Origin: an uncultured cyanobacterium | GTDB taxonomy: Bacteria > Cyanobacteriota > Cyanobacteriia > Cyanobacteriales > Cyanobacteriaceae | DNA: 64,000 bases | Assembly (NCBI GenBank): GCA_963710605.1 | Contig: CAVQBA010000005.1 | Location: forward strand, 96,001-160,000 | Direction: 5' to 3' | Shown: piece by piece, positions 28,684 to 33,244 of the stretch | Layout of the letters: each line of letters opens with the position of its first letter | Numbering within the stretch: position 1 is the stretch's first letter | Made by a program: the position numbers and the translations under genes | Notes under the pieces: generated by a model | The model's database searches: none | Seen by the model: the letters and a program-made list of their open reading frames with translations, nothing else | What the model was told of the DNA's origin: nothing

Positions 28684-28872
28684 TTAATCTTTCCATTGTG
28701 TGCGACGATATCGCTTCCAATTTTTCATTCTTTTGCGAGTGTTAAGGGATTCGTAACACCATCGGTTCGATTTTAAACACCATTCACATAATCTTAATTC
28801 AGGATATATTTTTACTGCTCTATATCGAAAACTTTCAAATTGAGGATAATCATATTGATCGTATTGTAGTCC
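28684..28872 (-). other. Small ORF (3' part) at the IS605 insertion site
   Basis: GLQYDQYDYPQF...CEWC...NWKRYRRTQWKD lies outside the intron; the track ORF 28684..29106 is a chimera of this and intron DV/DVI sequence. Confidence 0.4.
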
Positions 28873-28873
28873 T

Positions 28874-31216
28874 ATCGGGTAAGGTTTGAGGGTCACCCCT
28901 CGCACCTCCCCTAGAACCGTACGTGTCAGTTTCCCAACATACGGCTCAAGCCTCACTTCAAGCCTTTGACTTGGTTTTTGAATGTACCTGTTTGTGACAA
29001 GCTTTATGCAGATGTACAAGGTTGTCAGCGGAATCATTACCGCCATCTGATACTGGTACGATGTGATGGGTTTCCAGCTCTTCTCCATTGAATAGATATT
29101 CTCCACAAATTTGGCATTTCCAATTTTGATTTACAGCTACTTGATAGTATTTACTACCTTTTGCCCAGTAATTTTTGCCCTGTTTTAATTTGCGGTTGTT
29201 CCAGTATTCACGGAGTGAGGGATTATCTGGACTAGCGTTGCCTCTGACTTTGACGTGTCTGATGATAGGGGTTCTAGCTATATTGTATAGGATACGAGTT
29301 TCTCTTTTCCTTTTCTTCCAGTTCCTTTACACATGAACCACCGTTTACTTCCTCTGAAGCGATGAAAATATTTGTTTTAATACCATCTTTTTGATTTGTT
29401 GGGATGTCTTCTTTTAGCCCAACGATAAAGGTAATGCCATACTCGATTTTCGATGTATGAGAAGGTTTCTTTGCTAACTGCACCTCTGTAGTAATTAGCA
29501 AAACCTCTGAGAAGTGGATTCAATTTTCTGATAACATTTTCTTGAGTCCGACGCCTTCATTTCTGATAGTGTTTTCCCTATCTTTTTACAGAAGGCAAGT
29601 ACTTTTTCTTTTTGAGGTTTAATCAATAACTTCCCTTTGTATTGGCGAAGGTTGAATCCTAAAAAGTCGAATCCGTCTTCTATATGAACTATCCTTGTCT
29701 TCTCAGCACTGATTTCTAGTTTTCTTTCGGATAACCATTGTCTTTATCTGGATAGATATAGTTTCTAAAGATTCTTTATCTTTTGCAGTGATTACAAAAT
29801 CATCTGCATATCTTATAAATCCTAGTTTTTTATTTTGGAACTTAACAAACTCTTCTAAACCATGTAAACCAATGTTGGCTAATAATGGACTAATCACTCC
29901 ACCTTGTGGTGTTCCAGCCTCAGTTGAGTTATAAACTCCCTTTATCTATGTATCCAGCTTTTAACCATTCTTTATTATAGCTCATTGGGATGAGATTCAA
30001 TCATAGTTTAGAATAGATTCATGAGAAATGTTATCGAAGAAACCTTTTATATCAGTGTCTAGAACCCATTTGTCTCTATTTAATTTACCACCCATGAGTC
30101 TTTTAAAACATTGCTCGATGGCATCCTGACAGCTTCGACCACATCTGAACCCATAGGTGTTAGGTTCAAATATGGCTTCCCATTCGGATTCTAGTGTATT
30201 TTTGACTATTGCTTGTGCAACTCTATCTCTCACATTTGGGATTCCGAGAGGACGTTTCTTGCCATTAGATTTGGGTATGTAAACCCGTTTTGTTGGAGCT
30301 GCTCTTGGCATTTTCCATTCATTGACAAGTTTTACTCGCTGTGCAGGGGTGTTTATCACCTCTTTGTCTATCCCTGCGGTTTGCTTTCCGTATTGACTTG
30401 AGTAATTTGTCTTACACTTAACAATAGGTTTGACAGACTCTTATTATCAATTTTTGCAGCCTTCTTAGCTGTTTCCATTGACCAAGTTTTCTGGCACGGA
30501 AAATTCGGCCTCGCAAATTCTTAACAACTTTATAGAGCTTTACGCCAGTTGACCTGACTCCAGTCCTTTAATTGTCTATTGTCTCCATTTATCAAAATTG
30601 CTTTTGACATCTAACTTTTAACTCCGTTTAGAATCGTTGTGTTTTCGTTTTGTCCGTATAAGACCTAGAGCAACGTCTGCTTTTACTTTCGTTCAGGGGC
30701 AAATTTTGAACCCCTATCTCAATAATTACAATCAAGCATTCGCTTCTTGCTCCATCTTTTACCCTCCAGAGATTTCCGTTTTTGTTACCTCAAACCTACT
30801 CATTGTTTGAGACTCTGTTGGGCTTACCCTGTTGTATCTTTTGGAGTTTTAATGTGGTTAGGATGGTTGACTATTGTGCGATGGAGGTTTTATTTCTACT
30901 TCCTTGTTAAAGTCAAGAACAAGGAATTATCCATTTACCATTTTGGTTCAAAGTCTATCAGGGATAATTTGACTTTTTCGGGAGTAACGCACTTTAATCA
31001 TCAACTTAGGCTACGTTCATCCTTCCACATCTTTCCCTCTAGCTCCTTACCGCTTAATCCCTAGCAGTTACGGCTACTTTTTAGGGTCTGCATTCCAACT
31101 GTTTCGTTACCTACTCGGTTGTGACCAAACTCTTTTGAGTTTTTTCTATGAGGGCAGGTGGTAGAAAACACCTGGGAGCTACACGCTCTGTTCCAATCGA
31201 CCAGTTCAGGTCGCAC
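28874..31216 (-). mobile_element. Group II intron (IIB, chloroplast-like lineage by inference), 2343 nt
   Basis: 5' GTGCG at 31216; DV GAGCCGTATGTTGGGAAACTGACACGTACGGTTC (28914-28947, AGC triad); DVI ending CCTT-A-CCCGAT with bulged A at -7; internal RT ORF. Confidence 0.95.
28958..30610 (-). pseudogene. ltrA: Intron-encoded RT/maturase/HNH endonuclease, multiply frameshifted
   Basis: Fragments MSKAIL..DWSQVNW / GKQTAGID / RPLGIP..RDR..Q / YGFRCGRSCQDAI / DIKGFFDNI / GTPQGGVISPLLANI / RYADDFV / CQICGE...HHIVP..GG....NL..LH..CH. Confidence 0.9.
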
Positions 31217-31253
31217 TGACATACTCCCGTCGCGCATGGGCGAGGGATTCTCC

Positions 31254-32528
31254 TCAACTCAACAAGTCTTTGAGAGAAGGGAGCGTTTTATCCTGACTGC
31301 CGCCCACAGCCAGCTTTTTAATTAGCAACGCAGAATTGTAGTCTCGGTCGCAGCTTAAACCACAGCTATCACATTCGTGCCAACGGTCACTTAGAGTTTT
31401 ACTGACTCTATTTAGACATTGACTACAATGCTGGCTAGTTCCTCTTGGATTAACTTTGACAATTCTAGTGCCGTACTTTTGGGCGACTATTTCTACTATT
31501 TCTAGGAAGTTCCCGACGGCATTGTCACTCCAAGATTTATTCATTCCAGAAGAAGAAGATTGTCCGTTCTTGACGAAAATACCGTCAACTTTCTTTGGCT
31601 TATTTCTACGCAACATGTTGCGGATTTTTAAATCCTCAATGGCTAAAACACTACAACTACTAGCTAATTTATGTGCCTGGTTATAGTGCCAATCTTTTCT
31701 AGCCCGCGCTATTTTTTGATGAAGTCTAGATATTGCCCGTCGCACGAGTCTTTTCGCCTTCACTGAACGGGTTTTATCTTCTAGTTTTCTCTGTAATTTA
31801 GCTAGTTTAGATTGAGATTTTCTAAGATGTCTTTGAGGTAAGGCTTGGTTTTCATTTGAATCTACATATAGTTTTTCGAGTCCAACGTCTATTCCAATTG
31901 TGTTTGAAAGAGTAGCAACTGTATCTATCTCTATTTCAGGAATAGATTTGTCTTCCACTGACAAGTTTACGTAGTAGCCATCTGCTTTTCTAGTTACAGA
32001 AACAGTTTTTAGCTTGAATCCAGATTCAATATCTCTGGAGTTGTGAAACTTAAGCACGCCTAGTTTTGGCAGTTTAATTGTGCTTTCCACTAAGTTTTTA
32101 TCTGGCACTTTGGGGAAGGTAAAGGTGCGATATCTAGCTTTATTTTTAAAGCGAGGTCGCCCACTTCTGTTGCCTTTTGAGTCTCCAGATTTGAATCTAT
32201 CAAACGCTAAGTTAACCCTTTTAACGCAGTCTTGAAGTACCTGAGAATATAATTCTCGATACCAAGGTCGCTCCTGCTTAAGTTGAGGCAAGGTAGCTGA
32301 CTGGCTGTGCCAATCGGGGTTGTTTCTTAACTCTCCACTGCCTATTTCACACCACCGAGCGCAATAGTTGCCTTGAGGAATTACCAGATTACAGCGATTC
32401 ATTTGCCACCAGCGAAATCTATCAGCCAACAAATAGTTGTACTGATGACGTAACATATCCAACCATCGGTCAATTTCTTGACGCTGGCTAGCTGTGGGAA
32501 TCAATTTGTACTGGTAGGTTTTTCTCAT
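31254..32528 (-). CDS. tnpB: RNA-guided endonuclease TnpB
   Basis: RuvC-I GIDVGL, RuvC-II AIEDL, Zn finger CSQC..CDSC, RuvC-III DRDYNSA; all catalytic residues present. Confidence 0.96.
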   Translation of the reverse strand: MRKTYQYKLIPTASQRQEIDRWLDMLRHQYNYLLADRFRWWQMNRCNLVIPQGNYCARWCEIGSGELRNNPDWHSQSATLPQLKQERPWYRELYSQVLQDCVKRVNLAFDRFKSGDSKGNRSGRPRFKNKARYRTFTFPKVPDKNLVESTIKLPKLGVLKFHNSRDIESGFKLKTVSVTRKADGYYVNLSVEDKSIPEIEIDTVATLSNTIGIDVGLEKLYVDSNENQALPQRHLRKSQSKLAKLQRKLEDKTRSVKAKRLVRRAISRLHQKIARARKDWHYNQAHKLASSCSVLAIEDLKIRNMLRRNKPKKVDGIFVKNGQSSSSGMNKSWSDNAVGNFLEIVEIVAQKYGTRIVKVNPRGTSQHCSQCLNRVSKTLSDRWHECDSCGLSCDRDYNSALLIKKLAVGGSQDKTLPSLKDLLS

Positions 32529-33018
32529 GGTAAGATACAGTTTATTATTAACTGTACATAAAAGTCAAGCTTTGAAAATTAACTATCGTAGTAGTCGTAG
32601 AGCAGTGTTTAATTTAACCGTTCACATTGTTCTAGTAACAAAGTACCGACGAAAGGTGATTGATGCTGCTATGAAAACAGAATTAGAGCTTGTGTTCAAT
32701 TCGGTATTAACTTCTTGGGACAGTGAGTTACTCGAGTTTAATTGTGAGTCAGACCACGCTCATTTAATCGTGTCATTCCCACCACACAAGCTTTTAAGTA
32801 GTTTAATATCTAATTTAAAAGCCACATCATCAAAGACAATGTGGCGCAAGTTCGAGTCAAAAGTTTCTCCGTTCTACAGCAAGAGAGTTTTTTGGACGGG
32901 TGCGTATTTTGTAGCAAGCTGCGGAGGAGTTACGATAGATGTACTGAAAAAATATGTCCAAAACCAAGATTCTCCACCACCCAAGCCAGCCCAAAATTCA
33001 TCCCATCACGGGACGTGA
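32527..33018 (+). CDS. tnpA: Y1 HUH transposase TnpA (start may be TTG 32572)
   Basis: HIVLVTKYRRKV, DHAHL (HUH), FWTGAYF, catalytic Y in KKYVQNQ. Confidence 0.95.
   Translation: MVRYSLLLTVHKSQALKINYRSSRRAVFNLTVHIVLVTKYRRKVIDAAMKTELELVFNSVLTSWDSELLEFNCESDHAHLIVSFPPHKLLSSLISNLKATSSKTMWRKFESKVSPFYSKRVFWTGAYFVASCGGVTIDVLKKYVQNQDSPPPKPAQNSSHHGT
32539..32568 (-). promoter_or_regulatory. Possible sigma70 promoter for tnpB
   Basis: TTGACT-N18-TAAACT ending 10 nt before the tnpB ATG, overlapping a TACAGTT/AACTGTA inverted repeat. Confidence 0.35.
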
Positions 33019-33244
33019 GGATCTTCTTTTGGAAGAAAAGATAAATAATGATTAAATACAGTTTGGTTGCTTTGATTATACAAGTTTAGACAACTACAAA
33101 CAAAATTGTACCAAAATATAATACTTTTTACTTGTTGTTTAGAGATGGAGAGTAAACTCTACAATACAATCAAAATGAATCAAGTTTGATTATGTCAAAA
33201 TAGATGTAATACATATAAATGAGCTAAAAATTGATTATTAACTA

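What the first reader, a model, noticed from the sequence alone, without database searches (positions are those of the whole stretch)
28850..32528. Predicted splicing-dependent TnpB guide RNA
Established: TnpB omegaRNA is transcribed from the tnpB 3' end/right end, and its guide is the flank immediately beyond the right end. Seen: TnpB keeps all three RuvC catalytic residues, but 2.3 kb of intron separates the scaffold from the native flank GGACUACAAUACGAUC. Inference: unspliced RNA would present intron 5' sequence (about UGCGACCUGAACUGG) as guide, while spliced RNA restores the guide against the empty donor site TTTAT|GGACTACAATACG. The intron could therefore gate or reprogram the nuclease. 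This is the reverse of group I IStrons, where splicing destroys the omegaRNA.
Basis: inference. Interest (0 to 1): 0.85.

Follow-up and report, generated by a model that had tools for sequence, protein, structure and literature searches.

The report
Group II intron splitting a TnpB guide RNA
A mobile group II intron, whose own gene is now broken, sits one base inside the end of a cyanobacterial IS605-type transposon, cutting the TnpB guide-RNA scaffold off from its guide; related introns sit at the same spot in other cyanobacteria.

Summary
On the minus strand lie an IS200/IS605 element with intact tnpA and tnpB (RuvC D214/E298/D396), a conserved ~100-nt omegaRNA scaffold ending ...GGGAGTATGTCA, then a 2343-nt group II intron (31216-28874), then A + GGACTACAATACGATC. 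Intron-less relatives end ...GTATGTCAA, so the intron sits 1 nt inside the right end.

The intron arrived by base-pair-guided retrohoming. Its EBS2 matches the scaffold's 3' end 8/8 and EBS1 5/6, and both covary with the exon across 16 related introns.

The placement recurs: I found 11 other insertions 1-4 nt from such right ends, in at least three intron lineages. Most introns of the family sit elsewhere.

The window's intron-encoded protein is a pseudogene (9 frameshifts, 1 stop). The ribozyme is mildly eroded, and six similar right ends in the same genome are unoccupied.

Only spliced RNA could carry the native guide. No tool here could show expression or splicing. The intron-derived pseudo-guide has no TTAT-flanked target in this genome, so "gating" or "reprogramming" remains untested inference.

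Precedent: Thermosynechococcus group II introns at a conserved site in an IS200-family element (Mohr 2010).

Verdict: a new variant of a known kind, of moderate interest.

The parts
33041..33045 (-). TTTAT, the target-adjacent motif flanking the left end
   Evidence: All 4 left ends aligned (this one plus G330, G259, G055) have TTAT directly 5' of the left end CTTT(T)C....
28873..33040 (-). IS200/IS605-family element from left end to right end, including the inserted intron
   Evidence: The left-end boundary comes from an alignment with 3 relatives. The right-end boundary comes from 14 intron-less relatives ending GTCAA or GTCAC. The element is single copy in the genome at DNA level.
32527..33018 (+). 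tnpA, a Y1 (HUH) transposase of 163 aa with an open frame, divergent from tnpB
   Evidence: Pfam Y1_Tnp, E 4e-35. The ORF is listed.
31254..32528 (-). tnpB, 424 aa with an open frame; RuvC residues D214, E298, D396
   Evidence: Pfam domains. Alignment to ISDra2 TnpB 8bf8_A. Motif positions.
31217..31316 (-). Conserved omegaRNA scaffold (its 3' ~100 nt), overlapping the tnpB 3' end. It ends ...GGGAGTATGTCA and lacks only its last A.
   Evidence: Alignment A1 of 12 sequences gives 18 consensus pairs, 9 of them with compensatory changes. No Rfam family matches it. The true 5' end of the RNA is not determined.
31226..31246 (-). Subterminal right-end hairpin (CCCTCGC...GCGACGGG), which is also the terminal stem of the scaffold
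   Evidence: Read. The stem covaries among relatives.
31217..31229 (-). IBS2 and IBS1 (CGGGAGTATGTCA), the last 13 nt before the intron
   Evidence: Complementary to EBS2 (8/8) and EBS1 (5/6).
28874..31216 (-). Group II intron, 2343 nt: 5' GTGCGAC, DV, DVI, 3' ...CCCGAT
   Evidence: Rfam RF00029, 53.4 bits. Boundaries. It is 81% identical to the L069 and L076 introns, whose IEP ORFs are full length.
30979..30986 (-). EBS2 (TACTCCCG, intron nt 231-238)
30910..30915 (-). EBS1 (TGACTT) in the loop of the hairpin CCTTGTT/AACAAGG, intron nt 302-307
   Evidence: There is one U-U mismatch at exon position -5.
28955..30615 (-). Pseudogene of the intron-encoded RT/maturase/HNH protein (approximate limits)
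   Evidence: Against the 555-aa IEP of L069 it shows 10 indels (9 frameshifting) and 1 in-frame stop. The longest open stretch is 147 aa. Pfam finds RVT_1 fragments.
28879..28949 (-). Domain V and most of domain VI; branch-point A at 28880 (position -7)
   Evidence: None of the 32 consensus pairs in the 3' 110 nt is broken.
28873..28873 (-). Last nucleotide (A) of the right end (TCA|A) and first nucleotide of the 3' exon
28857..28872 (-). Native flank GGACTACAATACGATC, the guide the omegaRNA would carry after splicing
   Evidence: Read. It is unique in the genome.

Best explanation
A mobile, endonuclease-type group II intron of a large cyanobacterial family retrohomed into the right end of an IS200/IS605 element. 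The last 13 nt of that end (CGGGAGTATGTCA), which are also the 3' end of the TnpB omegaRNA scaffold, match the intron's EBS2 and EBS1. The intron inserted between TCA and the terminal A.

Shown:
- the anatomy and both boundaries;
- the base-pairing match and its covariation across relatives;
- the recurrence of the same placement elsewhere;
- the decay of the intron's protein gene.

Inferred consequences:
- On DNA, the TnpA cleavage tetranucleotide next to the right-end hairpin now reads TCAG, and the true end lies 2.3 kb away. Excision is probably impaired.
- On RNA, any omegaRNA made from this locus lacks the native guide unless the intron is spliced out.
- TnpB and the intron's EBS loops would compete for the same 13 nt.

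In this copy the intron cannot supply its own maturase and its ribozyme is slightly eroded. The most likely present state is a selfish element nested in another selfish element, with TnpB homing disabled or dependent on inefficient splicing in trans. A tuned switch is less likely.
For: - Boundaries and right end.
- Base pairing: EBS2 matches 8/8 and EBS1 5/6. The same aligned positions are complementary to each intron's own 5' exon in 16 of 18 aligned introns (read by eye from the table; L035 and L043 could not be aligned in those columns; EBS2 of L065 is unclear).
- Recurrence: 11 further insertions lie 1-4 nt from ...GGGAG[G/T]A[T/C]GT(CA)A-type ends. They are G015 (L063, same place as L205), G316 (L064), G269 twice (L065, L068), G365 (L066), G088 (L067), L090, L097, L166, L203 and L204.
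- tnpB lies directly upstream in L063/L205 and L166, with C-terminal remnants in L067 and L097.
- In a tree of 54 introns the right-end label (9 rows) needs 5 changes, and well-supported branches force at least 3. None of 500 label shuffles was as clustered.
- IEP decay.
- Ribozyme: 10 of 140 pairs broken, against 2-4 in the nearest relatives.
- Six other right-end-like sites in the same genome, within 2 mismatches of the 13-mer, are unoccupied.
- Precedent for cyanobacterial group II introns homing to a conserved site in an IS200-family element, and for trans-mobilised ORF-less introns: PMC2882425 (passages read).
Against: - tnpA and tnpB (1767 nt together) carry no disruption, while the 1665-nt IEP region carries 10. 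If the IEP decayed in place, that contrast implies selection on tnpA and tnpB, and so some remaining function of the element. By my own arithmetic the Poisson chance of 0 events when about 10 are expected is roughly 3e-5.
- DV and DVI are perfectly paired (0 of 32 pairs broken), and the IBS/EBS match is nearly intact. Splicing with a maturase supplied in trans cannot be excluded.
- Other group II IEP genes, some matched over nearly their full length, exist in the genome.
- Most introns of the family (about 107 of 113 sampled 5' exons) are not at right ends, so the right end is one recurrent target among many.
- No expression data of any kind were available.
Confidence: 0.75

Rival explanations
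1. The intron works as a switch: spliced RNA arms TnpB with the native homing guide, while unspliced RNA leaves it unarmed or arms it with intron 5' sequence. TnpB activity is thereby gated or redirected by splicing in this locus.
For: - The geometry is exact.
- tnpB and tnpA are intact, with the catalytic triad present.
- DV and DVI are intact, and IBS/EBS pairing is nearly intact.
- The arrangement recurs in at least three intron lineages.
- The contrast between the decayed IEP and the intact tnpA/tnpB could mean the element is still under selection.
Against: - The IEP is a pseudogene.
- The closest full-length IEP hit in the genome is only 59% identical to the L069 reference IEP. In the only tested cyanobacterial case I read, trans-acting IEPs were 84-100% identical to one another (PMC2882425, passage).
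- 10 of 140 ribozyme pairs are broken and the DV-DVI linker is 1 nt shorter.
- The pseudo-guide has two near matches in the genome, its own site and a paralogous intron. Neither follows TTAT.
- Right-end-inserted introns elsewhere are mostly degenerate too (L063 and L090 have deletions, L066 is interrupted), and several sit on tnpB-less remnants.
Confidence: 0.15
2. A timing variant. The intron was already ORF-defective when it inserted, mobilised in trans by a related IEP. The insertion is recent, and the intact tnpA and tnpB say nothing about selection.
For: - ORF-less or defective cyanobacterial introns are mobilised in trans (PMC2882425, passages).
- The sister intron L063 also has a defective IEP, with an internal deletion.
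- EBS/IBS pairing is still good.
Against: - No second copy of this defective intron is in the genome. The best paralog is 66% identical.
- None of the window's frameshifts falls in a way shared with L063, whose retained IEP segments read through in frame.
- No closely related IEP is present in the genome.
Confidence: 0.3
3. The IS and the intron form one composite mobile unit that moves together.
For: None found. The idea is raised only because the intron lies inside the element's ends.
Against: - The element is single copy in this genome.
- Sister introns sit in tnpB families only about 32% identical, and in different registers: -1, -3 and -4. These are separate insertion events.
- The right-end cleavage site is separated from its hairpin (inference).
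Confidence: 0.03

Closest known systems
Thermosynechococcus elongatus F4 group II introns in ISEL1 (Mohr et al. 2010, PMC2882425; passages read)
   Same: Cyanobacterial group II introns, several of them ORF-less, sit at a conserved site in an IS200-family insertion element. They are targeted by EBS/IBS pairing. The paper presents this as a way for introns to proliferate through another mobile element.
   Different: The passages I read do not say where in ISEL1 the site lies; Figure 1 is not held. No link to TnpB or its guide RNA was drawn, since the paper predates that knowledge. Here the site is the last 1-4 nt of the right end, which is the scaffold/guide junction.
IStrons: group I intron fused to an IS605-type tnpB element (PMC10690162, abstract and passages; PMC4227781, abstract from the search listing)
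   Same: A self-splicing intron and a TnpB omegaRNA share one transcript and overlapping sequence, so splicing and guide-RNA production interfere with each other.
   Different: Here the intron is group II, not group I. It is a separate retroelement inserted at the 3' tip of the scaffold, not an intron that spans the whole IS. Splicing here would create the guide-bearing RNA rather than remove the scaffold. That last contrast is recalled from the paper and was not re-read in full.
RmInt1 in ISRm2011-2 of Sinorhizobium (recalled, no call)
   Same: A bacterial group II intron whose natural homing site lies inside an insertion sequence.
   Different: That site is in a DDE-type IS transposase gene, with no guide RNA involved.
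ISDra2 TnpB-omegaRNA (PDB 8bf8, 8ex9, 8exa, 8h1j)
   Same: The same protein family (E 5.5e-24) with the RuvC triad aligned. The guide RNA is derived from the tnpB 3' end and right end, with the guide taken from the flank.
   Different: The TnpB sequences are distant relatives (phmmer E 5.5e-24; identity not computed). The scaffold sequence differs, the motif is TTAT rather than the recalled TTGAT, and here an intron interrupts the scaffold/guide junction.

Membership tests
IS200/IS605 insertion sequence | Y1 (HUH) TnpA transposase | tested here: met
   Pfam Y1_Tnp, E 4e-35, over residues 27-147 of a 163-aa open frame.
IS200/IS605 insertion sequence | Subterminal hairpins instead of inverted repeats; insertion 3' of a fixed short motif; conserved terminal tetranucleotide at the right end | tested here: met
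   The right-end hairpin covaries. TTAT lies 5' of the left end in all 4 left ends aligned. The right end finishes TCAA or TCAC in 14 of 14 intron-less relatives. That TCAA is the TnpA cleavage site is by analogy with IS608 (recalled).
IS200/IS605 insertion sequence | Seamless excision and an empty donor site | not testable with these tools
   The flanking intergenic DNA is not conserved in 20 relatives, and no sequencing run was listed.
TnpB RNA-guided nuclease with omegaRNA | RuvC D-E-D triad and a zinc-finger/TNB domain | tested here: met
   D214, E298 and D396 align with D191, E278 and D361 of 8bf8_A. TNB domain, E 5.5e-17.
TnpB RNA-guided nuclease with omegaRNA | Conserved structured RNA spanning the tnpB 3' end to the right end | tested here: met
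   Alignment A1: 18 pairs, 9 of them with compensatory changes. No Rfam family covers it.
TnpB RNA-guided nuclease with omegaRNA | Guide contiguous with the scaffold in the primary transcript | tested here: not met
   2343 nt of intron lie between the scaffold (ending at 31217) and A 28873 plus the guide at 28872-28857.
TnpB RNA-guided nuclease with omegaRNA | RNA expressed, loaded, and directing cleavage | not testable with these tools
   No run was listed.
Mobile group II intron | 5' GUGYG, domain V, domain VI with a bulged A 7-8 nt from a 3' AY | tested here: met
   GTGCG at 31216. RF00029 at 53.4 bits. Branch A 28880 at position -7. The intron ends ...GAT. The consensus features themselves are recalled.
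Mobile group II intron | EBS1/EBS2 complementary to the 5' exon | tested here: met
   8/8 and 5/6 matches. The pairing covaries in 16 of 18 aligned relatives.
Mobile group II intron | Intact intron-encoded RT/maturase(/En) protein | tested here: not met
   9 frameshifting indels, one 15-nt deletion and 1 in-frame stop against the 555-aa IEP of L069. The longest open stretch is 147 aa.
Mobile group II intron | Splicing | not testable with these tools
   No RNA data.
IStron | Group I intron ribozyme fused to the IS | tested here: not met
   Rfam finds only group II domain V matches in 28700-33100, at E up to 1.

The most novel reading that the evidence does not exclude
The 3' tip of the omegaRNA scaffold, which is the right end of cyanobacterial IS200/IS605 elements, is a repeatedly evolved and dedicated homing site for group II introns. 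In occupied elements TnpB can receive its homing guide only after splicing. TnpB and the intron's EBS loops compete for the same 13 nt. This would be a group II mirror image of the IStron conflict, coupling transposon homing to maturase activity. In this window the intact tnpA and tnpB beside a decayed IEP would then reflect continued selection on such a system.
Probability: 0.2. Interest if true: 0.8.

Novelty: new variant of a known kind. Interest (0 to 1): 0.55.

Why it matters
TnpB guide RNAs take their guide from the DNA just beyond the transposon end. An intron parked 1-4 nt from that end separates scaffold from guide, so a guide-bearing RNA can only come from splicing.

The same placement recurs in at least three intron lineages and about a dozen loci. 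That gives a natural set of cases, some with tnpB and some with an unbroken IEP reading frame as far as the contig runs, in which three questions can be tested:
- whether splicing and guide-RNA loading compete, as reported for group I IStrons;
- whether TnpA can still use such an end;
- why introns choose this site.

For annotation, a tnpB followed at once by GTGCG should not be read as having its guide in the next 16 nt.

For this particular copy, the most probable answer is ordinary: a decaying intron inside a transposon.

Tried and rejected
1. Empty donor site. A search of 20 relatives with the downstream flank found only the pyrC-like part, in one genome. No empty site was obtained.
2. Expression. 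No RNA holder or DNA holder was listed for 28700-32600.
3. My first 3' boundary (28879, after ...TTAC) was wrong. I dropped it.
4. Using the paralogous twintron (G000:C5:22608-24971) to fix the 3' boundary by frame restoration failed. No candidate boundary restores the host frame, so the host IEP may itself be broken.
5. An nhmmer profile of the scaffold's 3' part, run against 113 5' exons, found only 1 weak hit (E 0.017). It is too insensitive for a short hairpin with a variable stem. A crude hairpin rule gave 10 of 113, against 3 of 108 in an upstream control and 1.55 per set on shuffles. It missed cases seen by eye and picked up another repeat family. The counts I report are therefore by motif and by eye.
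6. dN/dS of tnpB against the 74%-identical G055 copy: dS is saturated and no value was obtained.
7. Rfam has no family for this scaffold.
8. Ribozyme versus ORF conservation: identity to L069 and L076 is the same in both (79-83%). This gives no sign of selective retention of the ribozyme.
9. Literature. Searches for 'group II intron' with TnpB, with IS605 plus cyanobacteri, with omegaRNA, and with IS200 plus insertion site plus cyanobacteri, and for TnpB with retrohoming found no paper placing a group II intron at an omegaRNA or right end. Supplements and figures were not available, so Figure 1 of PMC2882425 may hold the ISEL1 site.
11. Three of the 6 metagenome pattern hits (L206-L208), and on my rough reading of record titles and flanks about 18 of the 119 genome hits (GC-rich, non-cyanobacterial), are chance matches without intron continuation.
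Full report
**What is there.** Everything lies on the minus strand of the window.
- TTTAT is at 33045-33041 and the left end starts at 33040.
- A divergent tnpA runs 32527-33018 on the plus strand (163 aa, Pfam Y1_Tnp 4e-35).
- tnpB runs 32528-31254 (424 aa; OrfB_IS605 3.2e-18, Cas12f1-like_TNB 5.5e-17, HTH_OrfB_IS605 1.6e-11).
- Against ISDra2 TnpB (8bf8_A, E 5.5e-24), D214, E298 and D396 align with chain residues 191, 278 and 361 (positions). That these are the catalytic residues is recalled.
- Thirty-eight nt after the tnpB stop, GTGCGAC begins at 31216.
- Rfam finds group II domain V/VI at 28949-28879 (53.4 bits, gathering score 40). It is the only gathering-level RNA match in the window.
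- The RT reading frame between them is in pieces.

**Where the transposon ends.** The element is single copy in the 3.93-Mb genome. I used relatives to find its end: a 74%-identical tnpB with tnpA in G055, two 58-59% paralogs in the same genome, and intron-less right ends found in a 401-genome search with a 200-nt junction query.
- Twelve intron-less copies from other genomes end ...G(A/G)G(T/G)(AT)GTCAA. The two paralogs end ...GTATGTCAC. Beyond that point the sequences diverge.
- About 100 nt upstream of that end are conserved and fold into helices with compensatory changes (alignment A1: 12 sequences, 18 pairs, 9 with changes on both sides). This is the expected 3' part of the omegaRNA scaffold. 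Rfam has no family for it.
- The window reads ...GGGAGTATGTCA and then the intron.

**Where the intron ends.** I first placed the 3' end after ...TTAC (28879). That was wrong.
- Nine related introns, in unrelated exons, all keep ...TTAC-CC-GAT/GAC/GCT/ACT (or TTAC-TC-AAC).
- The basal pairing of domain VI covaries from GGG/CCC to GAG/CTC.
- In L072 the intron interrupts a tnpB ORF, and only this boundary restores the frame (...EAYTSKASFL|DNDLIPNFGEKPEGY).
- In L090 the 5' exon ends ...GGGAGTATG and the 3' exon starts TCAA, rebuilding the canonical end.

So the intron is 31216-28874 (2343 nt), with the branch A at 28880 (position -7) and a 3' end of AT. The 3' exon starts with A 28873, the last base of the right end (TCA|A). 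It is followed by GGACTACAATACGATC (28872-28857). All 4 left ends aligned have TTAT directly outside the element.

**How it got there.**
- Intron nt 231-238 (TACTCCCG) are a perfect 8-bp complement of exon positions -13 to -6.
- The loop of the next hairpin holds TGACTT, which pairs with ATGTCA apart from one U-U mismatch at position -5.
- I aligned 18 introns of the family. In 16 of them the same two positions are complementary to that intron's own 5' exon. I read this by eye from the table. L035 and L043 could not be aligned there, and EBS2 of L065 is unclear.
- This is the signature of base-pair-guided retrohoming. The IBS sequences are the scaffold's last 13 nt, partly inside the right-end hairpin.

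**Recurrence.** Related introns occupy the same tip in other genomes.
- In the same register as the window (...GTCA|): G015 (L063; the same place as metagenome locus L205, with a full tnpB), L097, L166 (tnpB upstream) and L203.
- Three nt from the end, by comparison with intron-less ends such as ...GGATGTCAA; the 3' exon was not read in any of these (...A[T/C]GT|): G316 (L064), G269 twice (L065, L068), G365 (L066), G088 (L067, with a tnpB C-terminal remnant) and L204.
- Four nt from the end: L090.
- Two further relatives sit inside a tnpB ORF (L072) or 9 nt after one (L056/L074).

Of these, 113 have at least 60 nt of 5' exon, and 6 of the 113 are right-end tips by motif. Three of those six are places I already held. 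Most family members sit elsewhere: in other introns, in genes, or in other repeats.

In a tree of 54 introns the 9 right-end rows need 5 changes, and well-supported branches force at least 3. None of 500 label shuffles was as clustered. The window's intron is sister to L063 (support 100/98), inside a clade from the same bacterial family whose other members use other sites. So this target was gained, or kept, several times.

**State of this copy.**
- Over its whole length the intron is 81% identical to L069 and L076, which carry 555-aa IEPs.
- Against them the window's IEP region has 10 indels (9 frameshifting) and 1 in-frame stop. Its longest open stretch is 147 aa.
- Ten of 140 consensus pairs in the 5' 600 nt are broken. 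L069 has 2, L072 has 2, L076 has 4 and L063 has 10.
- None of 32 pairs in the 3' 110 nt is broken. The DV-DVI linker is 1 nt shorter.
- The closest full-length IEP hit elsewhere in the genome (C5:23239-24888) is 59% identical to the L069 IEP.
- Six other right-end-like sites in the genome, within 2 mismatches of the 13-mer, are intron-free.
- Right-end-inserted introns elsewhere are often defective too: L063 and L090 have deletions and L066 is interrupted. The L065 IEP reads through over the 365 aa available before the contig ends.

**What follows for TnpB.** By sequence alone, a transcript through tnpB and the scaffold runs into the intron. Only ligated exons would join the scaffold, the terminal A and the native guide. 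An unspliced RNA would carry G+UGCGACCUGAACUGG instead.
- That 15-mer has two near matches in the genome: its own site and the paralogous intron, with one mismatch. Neither follows TTAT. Redirection of the nuclease therefore has no visible target here.
- The native 16-mer is unique in the genome.
- I could not find an empty site or any sequencing run. Expression, splicing and loading are untested.
- One observation cuts the other way. tnpA and tnpB (1767 nt) have no disruption while the IEP region (1665 nt) has ten. Either the intron arrived already broken, which trans-mobilisation of defective introns allows (documented in T. elongatus, PMC2882425 passages), or tnpA and tnpB have been kept by selection since it arrived. 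I cannot tell which.

**Known relatives of the idea.**
- Mohr et al. [quoted passage not shown] They list insertion into another mobile element as a proliferation route. The exact site is in a figure I could not see.
- The IStron work describes the conflict between group I splicing and omegaRNA (passages; abstract).
- My searches found no paper placing a group II intron at an omegaRNA or right end.

**Verdict.** The thing is a new variant of a known kind: a group II intron homing into an IS, here at the scaffold/guide junction, recurrently. In this window it is most likely a decaying insertion.

Noticed in passing
G000:C5:22608-24971 (outside the window, same contig): A paralogous group II intron with a full-length IEP ORF is inserted near the start of another intron's RT gene, forming a twintron. 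No candidate 3' boundary restores the host reading frame, so the host IEP may itself be broken.
   Followed up: partly
L072 (G009:C1, intron 5' end at locus position 1501): A close relative of the window's intron interrupts a tnpB coding sequence. The ligated exons restore the frame exactly (EAYTSKASFL|DNDLIPNFGEKPEGY).
   Followed up: partly
L112, L133, L138, L157 (one Floridaenema genome); similar in L189: Four introns of the family each follow the same ~65-nt repeat, which ends ...GGGGATGAATGACGAC, while the sequence further upstream differs. Either a short repeat serves as their homing site, or the repeat and intron spread together.
   Followed up: no
L120, L142, L191, L081/L154: Introns in several genera (Iphinoe, Calothrix, Richelia, Microcoleus, by record title) share a 5' exon ending ...AGTACC(T/G)CGAAGGAA(G/A)TT. 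This looks like another conserved target, and I did not identify it.
   Followed up: no
L068 (G269:C91), about 160 nt upstream of the right-end-like tip: The 3' end (DV/DVI) of another group II intron lies just upstream of the right-end-like sequence that carries the next intron. Two introns sit in tandem around a tnpB-less remnant.
   Followed up: no
G000: C1:123383, C4:1206904, C6:839729, C6:369218, C7:155680, C7:83712: Six further right-end-like tips (...GG(G/A)AG(T/G)ATGTCA followed by C or A) in the same genome carry no intron.
   Followed up: partly
window 28684-29106 (-): The 140-aa ORF listed here is spurious. It runs from the HNH remnant of the intron across the 3' splice site into the flank, and it has no Pfam match.
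   Followed up: yes
L043/L075, L069, L070: Three introns follow a hairpin plus ...GG(G/A)TAGTTCA. In L043 this lies 34 nt after a solute-binding-protein gene. It may be another kind of IS end or a terminator-like target. No tnpB was seen in the sequence available.
   Followed up: partly
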